36,791 nt of DNA. It comes from Minisyncoccota bacterium (GTDB taxonomy: Bacteria; Patescibacteriota; Minisyncoccia; UBA9983). Position 1 is the first letter of the stretch; each line of letters starts with the position of its first letter. Below, piece after piece: positions 2,682-27,329 of the stretch. Under the pieces are notes generated by a model, which saw nothing but the letters and a program-made list of their open reading frames with translations, had not been told where the DNA came from and did not search any database. The DNA lies in NCBI GenBank assembly GCA_041648395.1, contig JBAZPC010000004.1:1-36791 (forward strand). Reading direction: 5' to 3'. The translations under genes and the position numbers were made by a program.

Positions 2682-3894
2682 AAACTTTTATTGGGGCGCG
2701 GCGACTTCCAGCCATCAGGTTGAGGGCGGGAATAATAATGATTGGTCAGAGTGGGAAAAAGATAATGCTGAACGGCTGGCAAAAGAAGCGGGAGAACGAT
2801 GGCAGAAATGGCAACAGGAAAAGTTTCCGGAAATGTTTGACACGCAGAATTACATTTCCGGTCGCGCCTGCGACCATTACAACAGATATGAAGAGGACTT
2901 TGACATTGCCAAATCGTTGGGTCACAACGCGCATCGTTTTTCCGTGGAATGGTCGCGCATAGAGCCGGAGGAGGGGAAATTTGACGAAAAAGAAATTGAA
3001 CATTACAGAAAGGTGATTGAGGCGCTGAAAAAGAGGGGCATTGAGCCATTTGTCACTCTTTGGCATTGGACCTTGCCTGTTTGGCTTTCCAAAAAAGGCG
3101 GAGTGGCTTGTCGCGGGTTCTCGGTGTTTTTTGAGCGATACGCGGAAAAAATGGCGGGTTCTCTCGGAGATTCGGTAAAGTTTTGGCTGACAATCAACGA
3201 ACCGGAGATTTACGCGCTGAACGCCTATAATCGCGGAAGATGGACTCCTCAAAAAAAGGGAATCTTTTCTTTCTTCAAAGCGATGCGAAGTTTGATAAAA
3301 GCGCACCGCAGGGCGTACAAAAAAATCAAGAATTCAAGCCCGTATTCTTTTGTCGGCATTGTTTGCAACTTGTCGGATTTCAAGTCCGCGGAAGGTTTTA
3401 TAAATGCCATTCTGAAAATTTTTTCTGAAAGATATTGGAACCATTATTTTCTAAGGTATGTCAAAAATCAGATTGACTGCATTGGCTTGAATTTTTATTT
3501 TCATAACAGAATAGATTACGGATTGAATAAAAATAAAAATGAAGTTGTTTCTGATGTGGGCTGGGATTTGCATCCGGAAGGCATTGAAAATGTTTTGATG
3601 AATTTAAAAAAATACAACAAGCCAATTTATATAACGGAAAGCGGATTAGCGGACAAAGAAGACAAAAACAGAAAATGGTTTATAGAAAAAACAATTGAGG
3701 CCGTGGCTGGCGCTATAAATCAAGGCGCGGATGTGCGCGGTTATTTTCATTGGTCGCTTCTTGATAATTTTGAATGGGACAGCGGTTTTTGGCCGAGATT
3801 CGGTTTGGTGGGGATAAATTACGAAACTTTAGAGCGAAAAATTCGCCCAAGCGCATTAGTGTATAAAAAAATAATTGAAGAAAACGGATTATGA
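2665..3894 (+). CDS. Glycoside hydrolase family 1 (beta-glucosidase-like)
   Basis: FPKNFYWGAATSSHQVEG, RFSVEWSRIEP, TINEP (acid/base), ITESG (nucleophile), WSLLDNFEW. Confidence 0.93.
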   Translation: MLKFPKNFYWGAATSSHQVEGGNNNDWSEWEKDNAERLAKEAGERWQKWQQEKFPEMFDTQNYISGRACDHYNRYEEDFDIAKSLGHNAHRFSVEWSRIEPEEGKFDEKEIEHYRKVIEALKKRGIEPFVTLWHWTLPVWLSKKGGVACRGFSVFFERYAEKMAGSLGDSVKFWLTINEPEIYALNAYNRGRWTPQKKGIFSFFKAMRSLIKAHRRAYKKIKNSSPYSFVGIVCNLSDFKSAEGFINAILKIFSERYWNHYFLRYVKNQIDCIGLNFYFHNRIDYGLNKNKNEVVSDVGWDLHPEGIENVLMNLKKYNKPIYITESGLADKEDKNRKWFIEKTIEAVAGAINQGADVRGYFHWSLLDNFEWDSGFWPRFGLVGINYETLERKIRPSALVYKKIIEENGL

Positions 3895-18784: not shown

Positions 18785-19381
18785 ATGTCAAAAAAGGAAC
18801 TATTGGAAAATTTGAATAAAGAAATGCTGGCGTGCAGTAAGTGCGCGCTGCGGGCGGGGTGCAGTCGGGTGGTGCCGGGAGAAGGCAGTGCCGAGGCGGA
18901 GATTATGTTTATCGGCGAAGGGCCCGGTAAAAAAGAAGACGAACTGGGCCGGCCGTTTGTCGGCGCGGCGGGAAAATTTTTAGACGAAATGCTGACGTCT
19001 ATTAAATTAAAAAGAGAAGATATCTATATTGCCAATATCGTGAAATGCCGCCCGCCGGAAAACCGCGACCCGTTGCCGGAGGAAATAGAAGCATGCTGGC
19101 CGTGGCTGTTGGAGCAGATAAAAATAATTGAACCTAAGTTGATAGTTTTCTTAGGCCGGCACAGCATGAACAGATTTTTTCCGAACGAAAAAATATCGGA
19201 AACGCACGGCAAGCTTTTGATAAAAAATTTCGGGCTAAACCCCAATGGGTCGCCCAAGAGACAACACTTTTTGGCTCTCTATCATCCCGCCTCCGCTTTG
19301 TACAACGGGGGAATGCGGGAAACGCTTCTGAAGGACTTTAAAAAAATACCAATGGCGCTGGAAGTTGCCAAAGGAAAATGA
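18785..19381 (+). CDS. Uracil-DNA glycosylase family 4
   Basis: C..C.L Fe-S motif, GEGPG, PFVGAAG, KCRPPENR, YHPA. Confidence 0.93.
   Translation: MSKKELLENLNKEMLACSKCALRAGCSRVVPGEGSAEAEIMFIGEGPGKKEDELGRPFVGAAGKFLDEMLTSIKLKREDIYIANIVKCRPPENRDPLPEEIEACWPWLLEQIKIIEPKLIVFLGRHSMNRFFPNEKISETHGKLLIKNFGLNPNGSPKRQHFLALYHPASALYNGGMRETLLKDFKKIPMALEVAKGK
19232..19255 (+). repeat. 24-bp hairpin module in-frame in UDG
   Basis: GGGCTAA-ACCC-caat-GGGT-CGCCC encodes GLNPNGSP; same scaffold as modules at 22265-22297 and 22695-22730. Confidence 0.7.
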
Positions 19382-20204: not shown

Positions 20205-20714
20205 TTATTTTGCCTTTTCTATGACGACCATTAATCCTCTCGGGGCTTGTTTTGGCCCATCAGCAATCTTATAATTTTCTCCGATAAGATGCAAGAGGCG
20301 GTCCAGTCGTTCTCTTTTAAAATTATTATCAAGATATTTTTCCCTGCCTCTTAAAATGAGGTCAATCTTCACCCTGTTTCCTTCTTTCATGTAGTCGGCC
20401 GCTTTTTTCGCCCGCATTTCCAAATCGTGCTGGGAGATTCCGATGCTTATTTGGATGCTTTTTGTTTCAACCTTATGAGTTTTTTTTGTCGCGTCTCTTT
20501 CTTTTTTCTCCTCCAGATAAATATATTTGCCGAGGTCCATTATTTTAGCGACGGGCGGTTTGGCGGTCGGCGCGATTTCAATAAGGTCAAGACCGAGCTC
20601 CTTTGCCTTCTCCAGCGCTTCGGAAATTTTAAGGACGCCGAAATTTTCGGCGTTTGGTCCGACCACGCGCAACTCCGGCGCGCTTATTTGGTTGTTGATT
20701 CGCGGTTTCTTAAT
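20205..20714 (-). CDS. infC: Translation initiation factor IF-3, ATT start
   Basis: Frame extends upstream of the ORF-track start to ATT-AAG-AAA-CCG-CGA-ATC-AAC-AAC-CAA (IKKPRINNQI). LDLIEIAP and IMDLGKY motifs. An AUU start is established for infC. Confidence 0.93.
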   Translation of the reverse strand: MKKPRINNQISAPELRVVGPNAENFGVLKISEALEKAKELGLDLIEIAPTAKPPVAKIMDLGKYIYLEEKKERDATKKTHKVETKSIQISIGISQHDLEMRAKKAADYMKEGNRVKIDLILRGREKYLDNNFKRERLDRLLHLIGENYKIADGPKQAPRGLMVVIEKAK

Positions 20715-20737
20715 AGGATTTTAGTATAACGGATTTT
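20684..20737. repeat. 54-bp direct repeat, copy 1 (infC -10 box and first 10 codons)
   Basis: 52/54 identical to 21468-21521. Confidence 0.95.
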
Positions 20738-20753
20738 TTAATATCTTGCAAAA

Positions 20754-21344
20754 TTAATCAAGCAATGTTTTGGGAAAATATGAGATAATATCTTCTCTTC
20801 TTAAAATAATAATATTATTATCCGTTGCTTTTGTTAGGCCGAAAGATTGTCCTTTGGGAACTCCCACGTAGCAAACCTTTTTATTAAAAGATTTAACTTC
20901 TTCAATTGCCGGTACAAGGTCGGTATCAGAGCTTAAAAGATATGCAGTATCGTATTTATCTTCACGGGCGAAACGTATCATTTCAACGGCTATTCTTACA
21001 TCTACGCCTTTTTCATGAAAACTTTTGTCTGGATGTTGTATTAAGTTACCTAAAATAACCTGTATATTTTGTTGCTGAAGTTTGGCTATTAGTTTTTGTT
21101 GATTGGCGTACAATTTATCAGATTTTTCTTTATTTTCTCCGTTTTGCCTTTTCACGGCGCCGACATAATATCTAATTTCAACTAATGAATTATCTTTTAC
21201 AAGATTTTTGGAAAAATCACGGAAATTAAAGTCAAGCAATTTTAATAACCCTGTTTCCTTAGAGACGAAATCTTTCAATTTATAGTAAAAATTATTGCCG
21301 TCTATAAATATAAAAGCTCTGTTTTTGGACTTATTTTCCGCCAT
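20754..21344 (-). CDS. NYN domain protein (PIN-like nuclease fold, LabA/DUF88-like)
   Basis: FIDGNNFY, EKGVDVRIAVEM, LSSDTDLVPAI; ATG 21344. Confidence 0.88.
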   Translation of the reverse strand: MAENKSKNRAFIFIDGNNFYYKLKDFVSKETGLLKLLDFNFRDFSKNLVKDNSLVEIRYYVGAVKRQNGENKEKSDKLYANQQKLIAKLQQQNIQVILGNLIQHPDKSFHEKGVDVRIAVEMIRFAREDKYDTAYLLSSDTDLVPAIEEVKSFNKKVCYVGVPKGQSFGLTKATDNNIIILRREDIISYFPKTLLD

Positions 21345-21358
21345 AATTGCAATCAAAA

Positions 21359-21390
21359 ACTGCCGTCCTGGAGTTAACCAAGAAGGCAGT
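21359..21390 (-). promoter_or_regulatory. Hairpin plus U-run in the NYN 5' leader (attenuator-like)
   Basis: Minus strand ACTGCC-t-TCTTGG-ttaact-CCAGGA-c-GGCAGT-TTTT between promoter and ATG. Confidence 0.5.
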
Positions 21391-21405
21391 GAGATTAATA
21401 CACAT

Positions 21406-21435
21406 ACTATAACAAATCTCAACCCCAAAAGTCAA
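21406..21435 (-). promoter_or_regulatory. Sigma70-type promoter of NYN gene
   Basis: TTGACT-18 nt-TATAGT with TG extension. Confidence 0.6.
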
Positions 21436-21467
21436 CTTGGCTGCTGTGGATAATTTATCAAGCGCGG

Positions 21468-21521
21468 TTATTTGGTTGTTGATTCTCGGTTTCTTAATAG
21501 GATTTTATTATAACGGATTTT
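21468..21521. repeat. 54-bp direct repeat, copy 2 (orphan infC 5' end)
   Basis: 52/54 identical to 20684-20737; homology stops after codon 10. Confidence 0.95.
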
Positions 21522-21540
21522 AAAAAAGATTTCAAAGATT

Positions 21541-21807
21541 TTAGTTTTTTGTTTCTAGTTCTAATAAATATCTTTTTATCAACATCTCTTTCTTTTCTCT
21601 GCGCCATTTTTTGAGCTGAATTTCTCTTTGCCTTGCTTCTTTTAGCGTATCATATTTCTCTTGAAAAACGAGTTCAAAACTATTTTTATTCTTAGTGAAA
21701 TTCGCCCCTTGATTTATATTGTGCGAATTAATTCTTTTATCAATATTTTTCGTAACGCCGATATAAAGCTTATTGGCGTTATTTTTTATCATGTATACGT
21801 AAAACAT
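21541..21807 (-). CDS. Small stand-alone GIY-YIG nuclease (#1, 88 aa)
   Basis: FYVYMI...LYIGVT...KRINSH...REIQLK. Confidence 0.9.
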   Translation of the reverse strand: MFYVYMIKNNANKLYIGVTKNIDKRINSHNINQGANFTKNKNSFELVFQEKYDTLKEARQREIQLKKWRREKKEMLIKRYLLELETKN

Positions 21808-21813
21808 AATTTT

Positions 21814-21896
21814 GTCCCTCGACTTCGCTCGGGACACTCGATTCGCCTATATGGCTTGCCACGAGTGAGCCCGAGTTTATGAGGGCGAATCGAGTG
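21814..21896. repeat. REP-like hairpins at tmRNA 3' end
   Basis: GTCCC-tcgacttcgctc-GGGAC (21814-21835) plus a perfect 13-bp IR CACTCGATTCGCC/GGCGAATCGAGTG (21835-21847, 21884-21896). Confidence 0.75.
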
Positions 21897-22237
21897 GAAG
21901 TGGGCGGATTTGAACCGCCGTGCAAAAAGTTTCTTAAAACAACTCTACAAGTTTGCTTCGGCTGTTTTTAATCAAGAAGTATTAGCCGAAGAAAATCTTC
22001 TTGATTTTGACCCAGTTTAATTTTGGCAAAATCCCTGAATCAAAAATTTTTGCCTATCCCAATGATGACGCCGGATTCCGCTTATTGGGAATCAGCGAAG
22101 CGGCGCCGCTTTACGCGTATGCGAAAGCGGAAATTGGTGACAAGTTTGCACTTATCGATTTTCTAAAAGTTTAGCGAGATTTTAGAATACTCGACTTGCA
22201 TGATTTAATACGTTTTTTGTCGATGCCTTTCACCCCC
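21895..22237 (-). ncRNA. ssrA: tmRNA; tag peptide ANLSPISAFAYA* at 22149-22111
   Basis: 5' GGGGGTGAAAGGCATCGAC; 3' T-arm GGCGGTTCAAATCCGCC and CACTTCCA; resume GCA codon with a hydrophobic/Ala tag; smpB upstream. Confidence 0.93.
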
Positions 22238-22404
22238 TAAAACTTTTTGCGAAGCAAAAAGTTCGGGCGACAGATTTCAGGGAAATCTGTTTAGCCCCTA
22301 AAACTATTTATTTATAAAATAGTCGGGCGACCCTAGCCCTAAACCCGACTGCAAAGCAGTCTAGGGTCGGGCGGGTTTAGCCCCTAAAACTATTTATTTA
22401 TAAA
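22234..22404. repeat. Array of alternating hairpin modules (CCCTAA...CGGG / GGGCG...TTAGCCC)
   Basis: CCC(C)TAAA at 22234, 22295, 22337, 22381; TCGGGCG at 22263, 22323, 22367; 30-bp direct repeat at 22289-22318 and 22375-22404. Confidence 0.85.
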
Positions 22405-22649
22405 TATTCTTTCAATACTTTTCTTTTTGTACGTCCACCCCAAAGGCTTTTCAAAAATCTTTCTCTATTAAATGCCCCTGCTTTATCTTGAAAATTTTCA
22501 GAATGGATAAGAACGAGTGGCCTCCTATTTTTTGTGGAAATAACATTTCCGTCGTTATGTTTTTTAATTCTATTTTCTAAATCACTCGTGCAGCCGACAT
22601 ATAATTTTTTGTCTTTTAAGCTGTAAAGTATATAAACAAAATAATCCAT
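22398..22649 (-). CDS. Small stand-alone GIY-YIG nuclease (#2, 83 aa)
   Basis: YFVYIL...LYVGCT...NRIKKH...RERFLK. Confidence 0.9.
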   Translation of the reverse strand: MDYFVYILYSLKDKKLYVGCTSDLENRIKKHNDGNVISTKNRRPLVLIHSENFQDKAGAFNRERFLKSLWGGRTKRKVLKEYL

Positions 22650-22660
22650 AACCTACTTAT

Positions 22661-22730
22661 CCCCTAAACCTCAAATCGCAAAGCGATTGAGGTCGGGCGA
22701 CAGATTTTGCTTTGCAAAATCTGTTTAGCC
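22661..22730. repeat. Two further hairpin modules between GIY-YIG #2 and smpB
   Basis: CCCCTAA-ACCTCAAATCGC-aaa-GCGATTGAGGT-CGGGCG-ACAGATTTTGC-ttt-GCAAAATCTGT-TTAGCC; includes the smpB stop codon. Confidence 0.85.
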
Positions 22731-23168
22731 TTGCTTTATCATTCGTTCTATCTCTCTGTTTGCCTCTCGTTTTTTTATCGTCTCTCTTTTTTCAAATTTC
22801 TTCTTTCCTTTCACGAGCGCCAATTCAATCTTGATTCTTCCGTTCTTAGCATACAACTTTGTTGGCACCATTGTCAACCCCTTCTGCCTTAACTTTCCCT
22901 CTAGCGAATTTATTTCTTTTTTTTGCAATAATAATTTTATTGTCCGCTCTTTTTCAAATCCCTTCGGCATATTTTCCGGCTGATAAGGCGGAATGTCCAG
23001 CCCCACCAAAAAAATTTCTCCTCCCCTAATTATCGCCCGACTTCCGGCAAGATTGCCTCGCTTGTTTTTCAGGGACTTCACCTCCCATCCGCGCAACTCC
23101 AACCCCGCCTCCATTTTTTCGAGTATTTCATAGTCATAATATGCTTTTTTGTTTTCAAGAAGAATCAT
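22725..23168 (-). CDS. smpB: SsrA-binding protein SmpB
   Basis: ENKKAYYDYEILEKMEAGLELRGWEVKSL...KFEKRETIK. Confidence 0.97.
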   Translation of the reverse strand: MILLENKKAYYDYEILEKMEAGLELRGWEVKSLKNKRGNLAGSRAIIRGGEIFLVGLDIPPYQPENMPKGFEKERTIKLLLQKKEINSLEGKLRQKGLTMVPTKLYAKNGRIKIELALVKGKKKFEKRETIKKREANREIERMIKQG

Positions 23169-23186
23169 AATGATTTCATAATTTTA

Positions 23187-23220
23187 CCCCGTAGTTAAAC
23201 CGCAGGTTTATACTTCGGGG
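23187..23220. repeat. 34-bp MITE-like hairpin with CCCCGTAGT terminus
   Basis: CCCCGTAGTTAAACC-gca-GGTTTATACTTCGGGG; termini resemble the TIRs at 25739 and 26048. Confidence 0.6.
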
Positions 23221-23309
23221 CAAAAAACGCTTTTTTGTTTTCCAATAACGCGGACATGGTTTAAGTTTAGCAATTTGCTTTCCCTTCAACAATGCTATAA
23301 AATTTTGCT

Positions 23310-25187
23310 ATGCCTAACTTGAAAAAAAGCTCGGGCGGAGATCTCGCTAAAAATATCATTTCGGTTATTTTGGTTTTTATGATTTTAGCGGGGCTTTATT
23401 CTTTGATAACGGAAGGCGTCAAAAAGCCGGAAGTCATTTCACTTTCCCAGCTTGCCACAGAAATAAACAATGGCAACATCGTGGAAATAATAGTGAGTGG
23501 CGACGACTTGCAGGTAAAATTCAAAGACAATTCAACCAAGGCGTCTCGAAAAGAAGCGGAGGCGGCGCTTTCGCAAACACTTGTCAATTACGGCGTGGCA
23601 AAAGAACAGCTAGATAAAATTTCTCTCTCTGTGCAGAATCCGTCCGGCTTCTGGGTGGTGGCCGCCAACATTTTGCCGTTCCTGCTTCCTCTATTAGTGG
23701 TGGCGTGGTTTTTTTGGATGGCGGCAAGGCAGGTAAAGAGTTCAAGTTTACAGGCGTTCAGTTTTGGAAAATCACGGGCGCGCGTCATCGGTCCCGAAGA
23801 TAAAAAAGAAAGAATAACTTTCAAAGACGTCGCCGGCGTGAAAGAGGCGAAGGAAGAGCTAGTGGAGATTGTGGACTTTTTGAGAAATCCCAAAAAATTT
23901 TTGGACATCGGCGCGCGCATTCCCAAGGGTGTGCTTCTGATGGGCGCGCCGGGCACGGGAAAGACATTATTGGCGCGGGCGGTCGCCGGCGAGGCGGGCG
24001 TGCCGTTCTTTCACATTTCCGGTTCGGAATTTGTGGAGATGTTCGTGGGCGTGGGAGCGAGCCGCGTGCGGGACTTATTCGTGATGGCGAAGAAAGCGGC
24101 GCCGGCGATTGTTTTCATTGATGAAATTGACGCCGTAGGCAGACATCGCGGCGCGGGCATGGGCGGAGGACACGACGAGCGGGAACAAACCTTGAATCAA
24201 ATTCTTGTTGAGATGGACGGCTTTGAGCCGCATGAAAAAGTGATAGTGATGGCGGCCACCAACAGGCCGGATGTTTTGGACCCGGCTTTATTGAGGCCCG
24301 GCCGGTTTGACCGGCGCGTCATCCTTGATTTACCTGACCTTGCCGACCGGGAAGAAATTTTAAAAATTCACGCGCGCTCCAAACCGTTGGCGGAAGACGT
24401 GAAAATTCGCGTTATTGCCGAAAGGACACCGGGATTTTCCGGCGCCGATTTGCAAAACCTGATGAACGAGGGAGCCATTCTCGCGGCGCGCGAGGAAAGA
24501 AAAAAAGTGAGCCAATACGATTTAATCCGTTCCATTGAGAAAGTAATGCTGGGACCGGAACGCAAGAGCCACATTTTAACAATGGAGGAGAAAAAAATTG
24601 CCGCTTATCATGAGGCGGGGCACGCGCTTGTCGCCTCCGTTTTACCGCACGCCGATCCGGTGCACAAGGTTTCCGTTGTTGCGCGCGGGAAGGCGGCGGG
24701 GTACACTTTGAAATTGCCGATGGAAGAAAAGCATCTTTTTTCCAAAAAACATTTTCTTGACGAGCTGGCGGTTTCTCTCGGAGGATACTCGGCGGAAAAA
24801 ATGGTTTTCAATGACATAACGACTGGCGCGTCCAACGATATTTTTGTGGCGACAGACATCGCGCGTTCTTTGGTGACGAAATACGGCATGTCGGACAAGA
24901 TAGGACCGGTGGCGCTGGAAGGAAAAGAGGGAATGATTTTTCTGGGCAAAGATTTTTACGGCGAAAAAAATTATTCCGAAGAGGTGGCTAAGGAAATTGA
25001 CAGCGAAGTAAAAAAATTCATGACCGACGCGCAAAAAAAGGCGACAGAGCTTTTGAAGAAGAATCGCAAAGCGCTGGAAGCGATCGCGGGCGAGCTCATA
25101 GAAAAAGAGACGATAGAAAGGAAAGAGTTTGACGACATCTTGATTTCTTCGGGAATTAAGTTAAAAAAAGAAAGGGATCAGGTATAA
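23310..25187 (+). CDS. ftsH: ATP-dependent zinc metalloprotease FtsH
   Basis: Two TM segments, [31 protein letters not shown]. Confidence 0.98.
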
Positions 25188-25202
25188 TAGAACCATACAC
25201 CT

Positions 25203-25274
25203 GCGTGCGTAGCTCAATGGCAGAGCACAGAGCTTATACCTCTGCGGTTGTAGGTTCGACTCCTACCGCACGCA
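25203..25274 (+). tRNA. tRNA-Ile(UAU), CCA not encoded
   Basis: Acceptor GCGTGCG/CGCACGC plus A; anticodon stem CAGAG/CTCTG with loop CT-TAT-AC; GGTTCGACTCC T-arm. Confidence 0.9.
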
Positions 25275-25315
25275 TTGTTTTTATAATAAAATTTATATAG
25301 AATAACTACATTGGA

Positions 25316-25666
25316 ATGGAAAAATTTGGAGAAAATTTTGGACAGGCAGAAAATGCATTAGAACAGCCGAAAATGTCTCAAGAAATATTTGAGCGTTTGA
25401 TTGGCGCGCAAATAGATGGAATCAGGGATTTTTTTGACGGCGGAAATGCGGAAGATTGGATTGATAATTTTAAGGACAAGCTGGGAGAAATTGAAAAATT
25501 AGCAGACACAGTTGAAGCCATAGAATTTTACGGAAAAAGCGCCCAAGAAAGCGCCATGTTGGCAATAGGAAATATGAAAAAAAACTTAGATAGTCTTGAT
25601 TCTGACAAACTTTCAAAAGATGTAAAGGAAGCCCTTTTGAAAAGTTTAAACAATCTTTTTAACTAA
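25316..25666 (+). CDS. Acidic hypothetical protein, 116 aa
   Basis: Open frame directly downstream of the tRNA; no recognisable motif. Confidence 0.65.
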   Translation: MEKFGENFGQAENALEQPKMSQEIFERLIGAQIDGIRDFFDGGNAEDWIDNFKDKLGEIEKLADTVEAIEFYGKSAQESAMLAIGNMKKNLDSLDSDKLSKDVKEALLKSLNNLFN

Positions 25667-25669
25667 AGA

Positions 25670-25698
25670 TTGACTCTTTTTTAGGCATTTGCTAGTAT
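25670..25698 (+). promoter_or_regulatory. Promoter of the rplW-rplX cluster
   Basis: TTGACT-17 nt-TAGTAT with TG extension; small GAAA-loop hairpin at about 25702-25725. Confidence 0.6.
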
Positions 25699-25738
25699 AT
25701 TTAAACGCCCTGAAAGGGGAGTTTTAATTTATAATATG

Positions 25739-26048
25739 CCCCGTAGTAGAATTTCCAATTAATTATGTTCTACAATTATGTTCTCCAAAGCCTTAAAAAT
25801 GGCAATCTATACATAGGTTATACAACAGACCTAAAAAGAAGATTAAAGGAACATAATCAAGGATTAAGCAGGTCAACAAAACCGTATAAGCCATGGAAAT
25901 TGATATATTACGAAGCATGTTTAAATGAAAAAGATGCAAAACGTCGAGAGGGTTATTTAAAAAAGACCCAAGGACAAAGATTAATGAGAAGAAGATTAAA
26001 AGAATATTTTTATCAGCTTAATCCTTAATTGGAAATTTCACTACGGGG
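25739..26048 (+). mobile_element. 310-bp TIR-bounded element carrying a GIY-YIG gene, flanked by TATG duplication
   Basis: TIRs 25739-25762 and 26025-26048 match at 22/24; TATG at 25735-25738 and 26049-26052. Confidence 0.8.
25765..26028 (+). CDS. Small stand-alone GIY-YIG nuclease (#3, 87 aa)
   Basis: FYNYVL...LYIGYT...RRLKEH...REGYLK. Confidence 0.9.
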   Translation: MFYNYVLQSLKNGNLYIGYTTDLKRRLKEHNQGLSRSTKPYKPWKLIYYEACLNEKDAKRREGYLKKTQGQRLMRRRLKEYFYQLNP

Positions 26049-26049
26049 T

Positions 26050-26496
26050 ATGGCCTTACTGGATGTTTTTAAAAAGAAAAAAGAGTCGGAATCGGAAAAA
26101 TTCGCAAGAAAGCATAAAGTCCGCCAGCTGGCGGAAGACGAAGCGAAGAAAAAAGAAAAAACCGAAGATGATTCTAAAGAAAAAAAAGTAGATAAAAAAG
26201 CGGCAAAGAAGGCCGTTGATTTGTCGTCTTCAAAAGTTTTAATCAAACCGCACGTGACGGAAAAGGCGACCTATCTTAACGAAGCGAATGTCCATGTTTT
26301 TAAAATCGCCTCCAATGCCAATAAAATAATGGTGAGACAGGCGGTGAAAAAAATTTACGGGGTCTTGCCGGAAAGGATAAATATTATAAATATCCCGGAT
26401 AAGAAAAAATTCGTGCGCGGGAAACGCGGCGCCAAAGCCGGATACAAAAAGGCCTTAGTTTATTTAAAGAAGGGAGATAAGATAGAAACGGCATAA
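26050..26496 (+). CDS. rplW: 50S ribosomal protein L23 with long charged N-terminal extension
   Basis: LIKPHVTEKA...ANKIMVRQAV...YKKALVYL; ATG 26050. Confidence 0.93.
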   Translation: MALLDVFKKKKESESEKFARKHKVRQLAEDEAKKKEKTEDDSKEKKVDKKAAKKAVDLSSSKVLIKPHVTEKATYLNEANVHVFKIASNANKIMVRQAVKKIYGVLPERINIINIPDKKKFVRGKRGAKAGYKKALVYLKKGDKIETA

Positions 26497-26498
26497 TT

Positions 26499-27329
26499 AT
26501 GAAAAAATACAGTCCGACAACGCCATCAAGAAGACATCTGACCGGAATTTCTTTCCGAGATGTTTTGACTGCCACCAAACCGGAAAAAAGTTTGACGAAA
26601 GGAAGGAAGAGACATGTTGGAAGAAATTCTGCCGGACGCATCACCGTTCGCCACAAAGGAGGCGGAGTGAAGAGAGTGTATCGCGACGTTGATTTTAAAT
26701 ATGAAAAGAAAAATATTCCGGCTGTCGTTAAGACCATAGAGTATGACCCAAACAGATCCGGCTTTATCGCTCTTGTTTTTTACGCGGATGGAGAAAAAAG
26801 ATATATTCTTGCTCCGGGCAAAATGAAAGTCGGAGACAAAATAATGGTTTCTGAAAATGCCGATGTTAAGGCCGGCAACCGCCTGCCGTTGGAAAAAATT
26901 CCGGTTGGCACTTTTGTGTATAATATAGAATTGAAACCGAATGGGGGAGCGAAAATGGGAAGGGCGGCTGGCAATTACGCGGAAGTGGCGGCGCTGGACG
27001 GAGACAAAGCGCTTTTGAAACTTCCTTCGGGGGAGATAAGAACGGTTTTGGGAAAATGCTGGGCGAGCATCGGCCAGGTTTCCAAAGATGAATATAAATT
27101 GATGAATATCGGCAAAGCGGGAAGGTCGCGCTGGCTCGGTATCAGGCCGACAGTCCGCGGTTCCGCCATGAATCCAGTTGACCATCCATACGGAGGAGGC
27201 GAGGGACGGCAGGGACGCGGCACGCGACGCGCGAAGAGCCTTTGGGGCAAGCCAACCGGCGGCCACAAAACAAGGAAGCCGAAAAAATATTCCAACATTT
27301 TTATTGTTAGCAGAAGAAAGAAAAAATAA
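26499..27329 (+). CDS. rplB: 50S ribosomal protein L2
   Basis: GRNSAGRIT, IEYDPNRS, RGSAMNPVDHPYGGGEG. Confidence 0.98.
   Translation: MKKYSPTTPSRRHLTGISFRDVLTATKPEKSLTKGRKRHVGRNSAGRITVRHKGGGVKRVYRDVDFKYEKKNIPAVVKTIEYDPNRSGFIALVFYADGEKRYILAPGKMKVGDKIMVSENADVKAGNRLPLEKIPVGTFVYNIELKPNGGAKMGRAAGNYAEVAALDGDKALLKLPSGEIRTVLGKCWASIGQVSKDEYKLMNIGKAGRSRWLGIRPTVRGSAMNPVDHPYGGGEGRQGRGTRRAKSLWGKPTGGHKTRKPKKYSNIFIVSRRKKK

What the first reader, a model, noticed from the sequence alone, without database searches (positions are those of the whole stretch)
21541..26052. Three unrelated mini GIY-YIG genes in 4.5 kb, each with its own repeat architecture
Seen: 83-88-aa GIY-YIG proteins with intact Y...Y(I/V)G, R, H and E residues and low mutual similarity. 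Each sits at the edge of a highly expressed essential locus (ssrA 3' end, smpB/ssrA junction, rplW start) and touches a different structured repeat, with no transposase or integrase nearby. Knowledge: small GIY-YIG domains (YhbQ/SLX1-like) cut branched or hairpin DNA. Inference: a candidate class of minimal selfish elements in which a structure-specific nuclease and its cognate hairpins spread together; each nuclease may mobilise its own non-autonomous repeat family.
Basis: inference. Interest (0 to 1): 0.75.

Follow-up and report, generated by a model that had tools for sequence, protein, structure and literature searches.

The report
Three tiny nuclease cassettes around tmRNA
Three related small GIY-YIG nuclease genes in a groundwater Patescibacteria (CPR) genome are each the core of a separate tiny insertion, one at each end of the tmRNA gene and one on the rplW start codon, and each nuclease lineage carries its own hairpin-forming DNA wherever it is found.

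Summary
All three are single-domain, UPF0213/SLX1-like GIY-YIG proteins, 26-38% identical to one another.

Each gene is an insertion relative to close relatives:
- **C (25739-26048):** a 310-bp element with 24-bp inverted ends and a TATG duplication on the rplW start codon. Across 53 non-redundant related loci the ends co-vary. 41 loci have 4-5-bp duplications (12 different sequences), and 37 sit on a gene start.
- **B (22238-22734):** lies between smpB and the tmRNA 5' end, together with ~60-nt double-hairpin units. All 8 lineages examined have it at this site. The units occur only in loci that carry a B-type gene.
- **A (21541-21894):** abuts the tmRNA 3' end behind a conserved structured leader. 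This holds in 8 of 9 lineages.

Among near relatives, L187 has A only, L188 has B only, and L001 has neither. Contigs from other groundwater samples show empty B and C sites. All three lineages have gene-less derivatives.

That each nuclease moves its own cassette is inferred, not shown. The closest published parallel is the Ssn nucleases with their hairpin repeats.

The parts
21541..21807 (-). A-type GIY-YIG gene (88 aa)
   Evidence: PF01541 E 3.8e-19. 55 homologues found. In 8 of 9 lineages the gene lies right after the tmRNA 3' end.
21808..21894 (-). A-type structured leader. Long-range stem P0 (21884-21896 with 21835-21847), hairpin P1 (21869-21886), conserved CTCGTGGCAAGCCAT (21851-21865), and hairpin P2 (21814-21835), whose 3' arm holds the GAGG before the ATG.
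   Evidence: Homologous leaders in L187, L003, L178, L180, L185, L189 and L197. The consensus fold has 6 pairs with compensatory changes. Close matches (2 or fewer mismatches) next to a tmRNA-type 3' end occur only with A-type genes or their remnants. Coordinates.
21892..22237 (-). tmRNA (ssrA), the host gene flanked by cassettes A and B
   Evidence: ARAGORN; Rfam RF00023, 116 bits.
22238..22734 (-). Whole B cassette: an insertion between the last smpB codons and tmRNA G+1
   Evidence: A contig in run X2 joins 22237 to 22735 with only 'GT' between them. L187 and L001 have smpB abutting or overlapping the tmRNA.
22398..22649 (-). B-type GIY-YIG gene (83 aa)
   Evidence: PF01541 E 2.3e-14. 547 homologues. 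All 8 lineages examined have it directly after smpB and before the tmRNA. Model pLDDT 96; best fold matches are UPF0213 1ZG2 and SLX1.
22238..22294 (-). Double-hairpin unit next to the tmRNA: CTAAAC-hp1-GTCGCCCGAAC-hp2-GTTTTA, flanked by GGGG
   Evidence: An almost identical 66-nt unit lies in frame inside the UDG gene of L188.
22299..22380 (-). Further, partly nested hairpin modules between the B gene and the tmRNA
   Evidence: A 30-nt perfect direct repeat at 22289-22318 and 22375-22404 is unexplained.
22665..22728 (-). Double-hairpin unit between smpB and B; its CTAAAC supplies the present smpB stop codon
   Evidence: This unit is absent in L188, where B overlaps the smpB stop as ATGA.
25739..26048 (+). 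C-type element: 24-bp inverted ends (25739-25762 and 26025-26048) around the gene, flanked by a TATG duplication (25735-25738 and 26049-26052)
   Evidence: Contigs in runs X2 and X3 join 25733 to 26050 with 'CC' between them, which is an empty site.
25765..26028 (+). C-type GIY-YIG gene (87 aa)
   Evidence: PF01541 E 4.1e-18. More than 2200 homologues, many 75-90% identical.
25736..25762 (+). 8-codon uORF (MPRSRISN*) opened by the left copy of the rplW ATG; it ends 2 nt before the nuclease ATG
   Evidence: Read from the sequence. Family-wide, the left junction gives 22 short uORFs, 13 longer uORFs overlapping the nuclease start, and 6 in-frame fusions.
19232..19255 (+). Shortened B-type hairpin module in frame in the UDG gene (LNPNGSPK)
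   Evidence: L188 (B present) has a full 66-nt unit at the same codon; L187 (no B) has none.
23187..23220 (+). Gene-less 34-nt hairpin with C-type ends (CCCCGTAGT..ACTTCGGGG), inside a defunct copy of the smpB 5' end
   Evidence: Absent in L187, L188 and L001, and in the X2 contig.

Best explanation
The region holds three diverged lineages of one family of single-domain (UPF0213/SLX1-like) GIY-YIG nucleases. Each gene is the only gene of its own very small insertion cassette, and each lineage has its own stem-forming DNA and its own target.

- C is a 310-bp transposon-like element. It has 24-bp inverted ends and a 4-bp target duplication, and it lands on start codons, here that of rplW.
- B sits between smpB and the tmRNA 5' end. 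It is accompanied by ~60-nt double-hairpin units that are flanked by GGGG. These units also insert elsewhere: inside tmRNA genes and in frame in the UDG gene.
- A sits at the tmRNA 3' end behind an ~85-nt folded leader, whose outer stem pairs with the last tmRNA bases.

Shown: the insertions, their borders, empty sites in relatives, the clade-specific DNA structures, the gene-less derivatives, and sporadic presence among near relatives.

Inferred: each nuclease recognises the stem formed by its own cassette's ends in single-stranded DNA. Such DNA arises at replication or on uptake; the genome encodes ComEC. The nuclease would cut at the base of the stem, as shown biochemically for the Ssn nucleases. 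Host repair or ligation would complete the move. On this reading A and B behave like free-standing homing endonuclease genes specialised on the two conserved ends of ssrA.

All three borrow host expression signals: the rplW ATG plus an 8-codon uORF for C, the smpB transcript for B, and the tmRNA 3' trailer for A.
For: **Family and fold.**

**C.**
- About 60 of 78 related metagenome loci have co-varying inverted ends.
- Of 53 non-redundant elements, 41 have a 4-5-bp duplication and 3 have a 3-bp one, 14 different sequences in all (22 are TATG).
- In 37 of 53 a downstream ORF starts within 0-2 nt of the element end, against 2.3% at random positions.
- 36 downstream proteins hit 53 Pfam families, including GroES, SecA and EF-G.
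- An empty site and a 25-nt-core mini copy are seen in other samples.

**B.**
- All 8 lineages lie at the smpB|ssrA junction.
- The units were in 19 of 19 B-type loci and 0 of 168 other loci, about 1.3 Mb in total.
- Units lie inside the tmRNA in L163, L173 and L197.
- Units lie in UDG only in the genomes that carry B.
- Empty sites are seen in L187, L001 and the X2 contig.
- In other relatives the smpB stop overlaps the tmRNA 5' end, so the insertion is the derived state.

**A.**
- 8 of 9 lineages lie at the tmRNA 3' end and share the leader.
- The leader fold has 6 covarying pairs.
- Decayed genes (L058, L013), a leader-only remnant (L173) and a tandem leader (L189) are present.
- Empty sites are seen in L188 and L001.

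**Near relatives.** L187 (FtsH 94% identical to the window) has A only. L188 has B only. L001 has neither.

**Mechanism by analogy.** Single-domain GIY-YIG SsnA cuts only ssDNA, next to hairpin repeats that flank its own gene (PMC11893778).
Against: - No transposition, homing or cleavage has been observed.
- A hydrolytic 83-88-aa nuclease cannot by itself rejoin DNA.
- A and B were found at only one genomic site per lineage. Ancient residence with repeated precise loss is therefore not strictly excluded.
- The published SRM consensus of Ssn repeats has no match in the window.
- The Kaiserbacteria A-type loci (L180-184) show no detectable tmRNA upstream.
- Hairpin P2 of the A leader contains the likely Shine-Dalgarno sequence. 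It may therefore be an RNA-level translational hairpin rather than a DNA recognition site.
Unit-to-gene co-occurrence therefore rests on loci, not on complete genomes.
Confidence: 0.7

Rival explanations
1. The genes are host-serving Ssn-like nucleases, not selfish elements. On this reading they cut incoming or replicating single-stranded DNA at their hairpin repeats, for example to modulate natural transformation or to guard the ssrA locus against integrating elements. The hairpins would be binding sites that accumulate near the gene.
For: SsnA with its NTS repeats does this in Neisseria (PMC11893778). The window encodes ComEC. A and B recur together around the tmRNA in distant lineages (L189, L197). 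tmRNA 3' ends are integration sites: a serine recombinase island follows the tmRNA in L163 but not in L166.
Against: Presence is sporadic among near relatives: L187, L188 and L001 differ. Pseudogenes and remnants exist. C-type copies land on dozens of unrelated genes with target duplications. Units are inserted inside a tmRNA gene and inside the UDG coding sequence. All of this looks like parasitism rather than a conserved function.
Confidence: 0.15
2. The cassettes are passive cargo. On this reading the repeats are MITE- or MIC-like elements moved in trans by an unidentified conventional transposase or recombinase, and the GIY-YIG gene is only a passenger.
For: 4-bp duplications and inverted ends are typical of DDE-type insertion sequences. 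GIY-YIG enzymes are not a recognised transposase class (my own knowledge).
Against: No transposase or integrase was found among the annotated ORFs of the window or the 20-kb L081 copy. In 53 non-redundant C-type loci the only gene between the ends is the nuclease gene. Each end type goes with one nuclease clade.
Confidence: 0.08
3. The structures act at the RNA level. On this reading the hairpins are processing or stability signals for the smpB-tmRNA transcript and the rplW mRNA, and A and B help tmRNA maturation.
For: A and B are probably co-transcribed with the tmRNA. Stem P0 stacks on the acceptor stem, and P2 hides the GAGG before the ATG. A freshwater metatranscriptome contig covers a module upstream of a related tmRNA.
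Against: Most relatives mature their tmRNA without these structures. SsnA does not act on RNA. RNA function does not explain the target duplications or the insertion in UDG.
Confidence: 0.05
4. The genes are syntenically stable repair nucleases inherited vertically.
For: A and B always occupy the same site relative to ssrA.
Against: Empty sites occur in the closest relatives and in other samples. In relatives the smpB stop overlaps the tmRNA start, so absence is the ancestral state. C is found in many different contexts.
Confidence: 0.02

Closest known systems
Ssn family: single-domain GIY-YIG site-specific ssDNA nucleases with NTS/SRM hairpin repeats (Chenal et al. 2025, PMC11893778)
   Same: A nuclease of about 90 aa consisting of the GIY-YIG domain alone. 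The gene is flanked by its own hairpin-forming repeats, and repeat type tracks nuclease type. The authors note an IS-like layout and the REP/RAYT analogy.
   Different: The repeats here do not fit the SRM consensus. The best structural relatives are UPF0213/SLX1, and cd10448 membership could not be tested. There are clean target duplications, empty sites and fixed targets (start codons, the two tmRNA ends). Ssn repeats are not shown to be mobile.
Free-standing GIY-YIG homing endonuclease genes (phage T4 Seg proteins; I-TevI family)
   Same: A nuclease gene wedged between conserved genes at the same site in different genomes. It is sporadic among close relatives, and decayed copies exist (A and B).
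   Different: Those enzymes carry a separate DNA-binding domain and are 200-250 aa long (my own knowledge). Here there is only the 83-88-aa catalytic domain, plus structured flanking DNA. The fold match to I-TevI is weak (E 0.35).
Insertion sequences with MITE derivatives; REP/BIME repeats with RAYT transposases
   Same: Inverted ends, short target duplications, many contexts and gene-less mini copies (C). Mosaic hairpin modules in alternating orientation next to a single nuclease gene (B).
   Different: No DDE, HUH, serine, tyrosine or DEDD enzyme is present. The only protein is a GIY-YIG nuclease. At 310 bp the element is far smaller than known autonomous IS elements (my own knowledge).
UPF0213 proteins (B. 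halodurans BH0048, 1ZG2; E. faecalis EF2693, 1YWL) and the SLX1 nuclease domain
   Same: Best sequence and fold matches. SLX1 cuts branched and flap DNA.
   Different: UPF0213 proteins have no assigned function. SLX1 needs SLX4 and has a RING domain.

Membership tests
GIY-YIG superfamily (PF01541) | Profile match above the curated cut-off | tested here: met
   69.2, 53.9 and 65.9 bits against a cut-off of 22.6.
GIY-YIG superfamily (PF01541) | Catalytic residues: GIY Tyr, YIG Tyr, Arg, His, Glu | tested here: met
   Aligned in A, B and C. In 44 B-type sequences Y6, Y17, H31 and E63 are invariant and R27 is nearly invariant.
GIY-YIG superfamily (PF01541) | Three-stranded sheet packed by helices | tested here: met
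   B-type model, pLDDT 96. Foldseek matches: 1ZG2 E 6e-5; SLX1 TM 0.65-0.70 at about 2 A rmsd. A and C were not modelled.
Ssn nucleases (cd10448) with SRM repeats | Single-domain protein of about 90 aa whose gene is flanked by hairpin repeats | tested here: met
Ssn nucleases (cd10448) with SRM repeats | Repeats fit the published SRM consensus HGTCWYN(0-2)YYVSBRHN(0-5)WNVSBRGN(0-2)RNCYNB | tested here: not met
   0 matches in the window on either strand.
Ssn nucleases (cd10448) with SRM repeats | Assignment to CDD cd10448 rather than the UPF0213 model | not testable with these tools
   No CDD library is available. The best PDB sequence hits are UPF0213 proteins.
Ssn nucleases (cd10448) with SRM repeats | Cleaves only ssDNA, a few nt from the hairpin | not testable with these tools
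   Requires a biochemical assay.
Transposable element with inverted ends (applied to C) | Terminal inverted repeats and a fixed-length target duplication of varying sequence | tested here: met
   24-bp ends. Of 53 non-redundant elements, 41 have 4-5-bp and 3 have 3-bp duplications, 14 different sequences in all.
Transposable element with inverted ends (applied to C) | Many unrelated insertion contexts, and an empty site | tested here: met
   53 Pfam families among 36 downstream genes. The join 25733|CC|26050 in runs X2 and X3.
Transposable element with inverted ends (applied to C) | Encodes a recognised transposase class (DDE, DEDD, HUH, Ser, Tyr, Cas1) | tested here: not met
   The only ORF is the GIY-YIG gene.
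Free-standing homing endonuclease gene (applied to A and B) | Same intergenic site in different genomes, with sporadic presence among close relatives | tested here: met
   B in 8 of 8 lineages and A in 8 of 9 lineages at the ssrA ends. L187, L188 and L001 differ.
Free-standing homing endonuclease gene (applied to A and B) | Separate DNA-binding domain giving a long recognition site | tested here: not met
   83-88 aa, the catalytic domain only.
Free-standing homing endonuclease gene (applied to A and B) | Cuts the empty allele near the insertion point | not testable with these tools
   Requires a biochemical assay.

The most novel reading that the evidence does not exclude
Single-domain GIY-YIG nucleases of 83-88 aa are the sole enzymes of a new class of minimal mobile DNA in Patescibacteria. 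The class has diversified into lineages with different targets: gene start codons, the tmRNA 5' end and the tmRNA 3' end. Each lineage recognises the stem formed by its own ends in single-stranded DNA. This would add GIY-YIG to the recognised transposase or homing chemistries, in elements of about 300-500 bp.
Probability: 0.4. Interest if true: 0.9.

Novelty: new variant of a known kind. Interest (0 to 1): 0.74.

Why it matters
One locus shows three sister nuclease lineages side by side, each with its own folded DNA partner and its own target. That makes a specificity matrix directly testable: three proteins against three substrates. If the nucleases prove to be the movers, these would be among the smallest self-contained mobile elements known and would use an enzyme type not counted among transposases. 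The tmRNA-end cassettes also matter for annotation. Units inserted inside tmRNA genes make ARAGORN miss the gene in L163 and L173 (against Rfam). They also change the smpB stop codon. Sequence- or structure-specific ssDNA nucleases are of practical interest as tools, as argued in the Ssn paper.

Tried and rejected
- **Suspected strain without C.** The exact C protein was listed on one contig only. I suspected a strain lacking C, but L081 and L082 are identical to the window across the C element and its flanks (alignment covers window 25640-26080 only).
- **Viral contigs.** These hold no close relatives of A, B or C.
- **SRM consensus.** The consensus from the Ssn paper has no match in the window.
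- **RNA runs.** These hold only tmRNA fragments of relatives and say nothing about expression of A or B.
- **Kaiserbacteria A-type gene.** Rfam finds no tmRNA upstream of it in L180, even at E up to 1. That lineage remains an exception.
- **Literature.** Searches for GIY-YIG with Patescibacteria, YhbQ, inverted repeats and target duplication, or tmRNA found no description of these cassettes. Only the Ssn paper is close.
- **B-gene ends.** I looked for inverted ends or a clean duplication around the B gene itself and around the right end of the A cassette, and found none. Only the double-hairpin units show GGG(G) flanks.


Full report
**What is there**

The window comes from a groundwater Patescibacteria (Parcubacteria) genome. 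Its closest species-level relative in the genome collection is a Candidatus Terrybacteria MAG (L001, SmpB 87%).

Between 21541 and 26052 lie three small ORFs that match the GIY-YIG catalytic domain well above Pfam's cut-off:
- A: 21541-21807(-), 88 aa.
- B: 22398-22649(-), 83 aa.
- C: 25765-26028(+), 87 aa.

No further copy is in the window. The neighbours are:
- tmRNA at 21892-22237(-);
- smpB at 22725-23168(-);
- ftsH, tRNA-Ile(UAU) and a 116-aa ORF;
- rplW, starting at 26050.

The three proteins are homologues, not unrelated (phmmer E 1e-16 to 2e-8). Their best solved relatives are the UPF0213 proteins 1ZG2 and 1YWL, followed by SLX1. A confident model of B (pLDDT 96) superposes on SLX1 nuclease domains at about 2 A rmsd. 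In a tree of 135 homologues the three form separate clades. Identity is 62-77% within clades and 26-38% between them. These sets are the top hits to each query, so the separation is partly by construction.

**All three are insertions**

In many Patescibacteria relatives with adjacent genes the order is smpB, tmRNA, infC, rpmI, with ftsH and tRNA-Ile upstream in the closest ones, and no GIY-YIG gene. The smpB stop often lies inside the first tmRNA bases. Three close relatives differ from the window in informative ways:
- L187 (FtsH 94%, InfC 96%, SmpB 93% identical to the window) has A only. It has neither B nor the NYN gene.
- L188 (FtsH 75%) has B only, plus one double-hairpin unit.
- L001 has neither A nor B.

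Logan contigs from two other groundwater runs add direct empty sites. One contig joins 22237 to 22735 with only 'GT' between them. This gives ATGATAAAACGGGGGTGAAAGGC, almost the same as the L187 junction ATGATTAAACGGGGGTGAAAGGC (one base differs). Another joins 25733 to 26050 with 'CC' between them, which leaves an intact rplW ATG.

The identical contigs L081 and L082 are the same organism as the window and carry all three genes. No within-strain polymorphism was seen.

**Cassette C (25739-26048)**

The gene is bracketed by 24-bp inverted ends, CCCCGTAGTAGAATTTCCAATTAA and its near complement, and by a TATG duplication. The right-hand ATG is the rplW start. The left-hand ATG opens an 8-codon uORF that stops 2 nt before the nuclease ATG. 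The nuclease stop lies in the right end, 21 nt before the rplW ATG.

I fetched 80 metagenome loci encoding relatives 60-88% identical. About 60 of the 78 loci with enough flank show the same layout, with ends that differ between loci but stay complementary. Each keeps one G.T plus one A.C irregularity at positions 10-11 of the arm.

Among 53 non-redundant elements:
- 41 have a perfect 4-5-bp flanking duplication, and 3 more have a 3-bp one. The sequences are TATG x22, TGGA, TGAA, ATGA, TGTG, TGAT, AAAA, TTTA, GGAA, AGGA, TTCAC and others.
- In 37 an ORF starts within 0-2 nt of the element end, against 2.3% at random positions.
- Where the duplication is TGAA or TGGA, the element's last base rebuilds an ATG or GTG.

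The 36 downstream proteins fall into 53 Pfam families, including GroES, SecA, EF-G, pilus ATPase and PlsY. Gene-less mini copies also exist. One is a 25-nt-core version in runs X2 and X3. Another is a 34-nt hairpin at 23187-23220.

Earlier agents of this scan reported the same family in other genomes. I re-derived it here from independent loci.

**Cassette B (22238-22734)**

B-type relatives (66-90% identical) were traced in eight lineages: the window, L188, L007, L163-172, L173-175, L176-177, L189-192 and L197. In every one the gene follows the smpB stop, from a 4-nt overlap to 75 nt, and precedes the tmRNA.

Between the gene and the tmRNA lie units of the form CTAAAC-hairpin-GTCGCCCGAAC-hairpin-GTTTTA. 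The hairpin stems vary and the flanks are constant. The units are bounded by GGGG, and the last GGGG is the tmRNA 5' end.

A pattern search found these half-units in 19 of 19 B-type loci then in hand and in none of 168 other loci, about 1.3 Mb that is mostly Patescibacteria. Loci fetched later (L188, L189, L197) have them too.

The units also insert elsewhere:
- Inside the tmRNA gene in L163, L173 and L197. This gives tmRNAs of 451 nt in L163 and L173 that Rfam finds but ARAGORN misses.
- In frame in the UDG gene. L188 has a full 66-nt unit there and the window has a shortened 24-nt one (19232-19255). L187, which lacks B, has none.

In the window, one unit lies between smpB and B and supplies the present smpB stop codon.

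**Cassette A (21541-21894)**

A-type relatives (54-86% identical) start right after the tmRNA discriminator base in the window, L187, L003, L178, L185, L189-196 and L197, and as a decayed gene in L058. All share a leader made of four parts:
- a long-range stem (CACTCGAyTC with GArTCGAGTG) whose first bases are the tmRNA 3' end;
- a variable hairpin;
- the conserved CTCGTGGCAAGCCAC;
- a second hairpin (GyCCyGAG..TCGArGGrC) that holds the GAGG before the ATG.

The consensus fold has six pairs with compensatory changes. Close matches to the motif next to a tmRNA-type 3' end occur only with A-type genes or their remnants. L173 has a leader-only remnant and L189 has a tandem leader. The Kaiserbacteria loci L180-184 have the leader but no detectable tmRNA upstream, which is an exception. 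The 3' border of the cassette is not sharply defined; homology to empty sites resumes near the infC -10 box.

**How it most likely works**

What is shown: three sister nuclease clades, each tied to its own stem-forming DNA and its own target; independent gain or loss among near relatives; and gene-less derivatives for each.

What is inferred: each nuclease recognises the stem formed by the ends of its cassette in single-stranded DNA and cuts at its base. The inference rests on two published facts:
- SsnA, a single-domain GIY-YIG protein, binds and cuts only ssDNA next to the hairpin repeats that flank its own gene (PMC11893778).
- SLX1, the closest fold, is a structure-specific nuclease.

The 4-bp duplications of C and the GGG(G) flanks of B units fit a short staggered target cut. 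Rejoining must come from host functions. A and B behave like free-standing homing endonuclease genes specialised on the two most conserved pieces of local sequence, the tmRNA ends. The genome encodes ComEC, so DNA uptake is a plausible route for single-stranded substrates and for spread between lineages. All three cassettes rely on host expression signals.

**Comparison and novelty**

The nearest published system is Ssn with its SRM repeats. Its authors already remark on the IS-like layout and the REP/RAYT analogy. The cassettes here differ in several ways:
- The repeats do not fit the SRM consensus.
- The proteins look UPF0213/SLX1-like.
- There are clean target duplications, empty sites and fixed targets.

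No recognised transposase class is present. Searches of the paper library found no description of these cassettes. I therefore file this as a new variant of a known kind. The bolder reading is that GIY-YIG nucleases are the movers of a new class of minimal mobile DNA, and I give that about 40%.

**Limits**

- The co-occurrence statistics rest on fetched loci, not complete genomes.
- No activity was observed.
- The RNA data were uninformative.

Noticed in passing
window 20678-21536: The NYN-domain gene (20754-21428) sits in a 784-bp insertion flanked by a 75-nt direct repeat (88% identical) of the infC promoter and leader. L187, the closest relative, goes straight from the A gene to infC.
   Followed up: partly
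window 23143-23257: The smpB 5' end is duplicated. A defunct first copy (ATGTCCGCGTTATTGGAAAAC.., 23221-23257) is in register with the real smpB start of L187 and L188. It is interrupted by the 34-nt C-type hairpin, and a second start follows. An X2 contig joins 23142 directly to 23229, so it lacks this 86-nt stretch.
   Followed up: partly
window 22289-22318 and 22375-22404: A perfect 30-nt direct repeat, 86 nt apart. The second copy overlaps the B stop codon. Its origin is unexplained; it may be a recent module duplication or recombination.
   Followed up: no
L163:3399-3849, L173:3396-3846, L197 around 3045-3120: tmRNA genes carry a ~70-nt double-hairpin unit inside. ARAGORN misses the tmRNA in L163 and L173 while Rfam finds it at 105-110 bits.
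   Followed up: partly
window 25202-25275: tRNA-Ile with anticodon TAT (UAU), between ftsH and the 116-aa ORF. The same order is seen in relatives L001-L004.
   Followed up: no
L013:6806-7018: An 18-nt copy of the tmRNA 3' end (AACTCCGGCCATCTCCAC) is repeated 166 nt downstream, just before a frameshifted GIY-YIG gene.
   Followed up: no
L163-L170 against L166 (downstream of the tmRNA): The same species cluster has either a large serine recombinase gene or infC after the tmRNA. This suggests an island integrated at the tmRNA 3' end. FtsH in these loci carries an intein with a LAGLIDADG domain.
   Followed up: no
window 25187-26500: rplW is preceded by ftsH, tRNA-Ile and a 116-aa ORF without a Pfam hit, not by rpsJ-rplC-rplD. 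A sigma-70-like promoter (TTGACT..TAGTAT) lies about 60 nt upstream of the C element.
   Followed up: no
L180:2800-2873: Upstream of the Kaiserbacteria A-type leader is a short stretch starting GGGGCG and ending ..ATCCCCAC. It may be a remnant of the two tmRNA ends. No RNA family matched it.
   Followed up: partly
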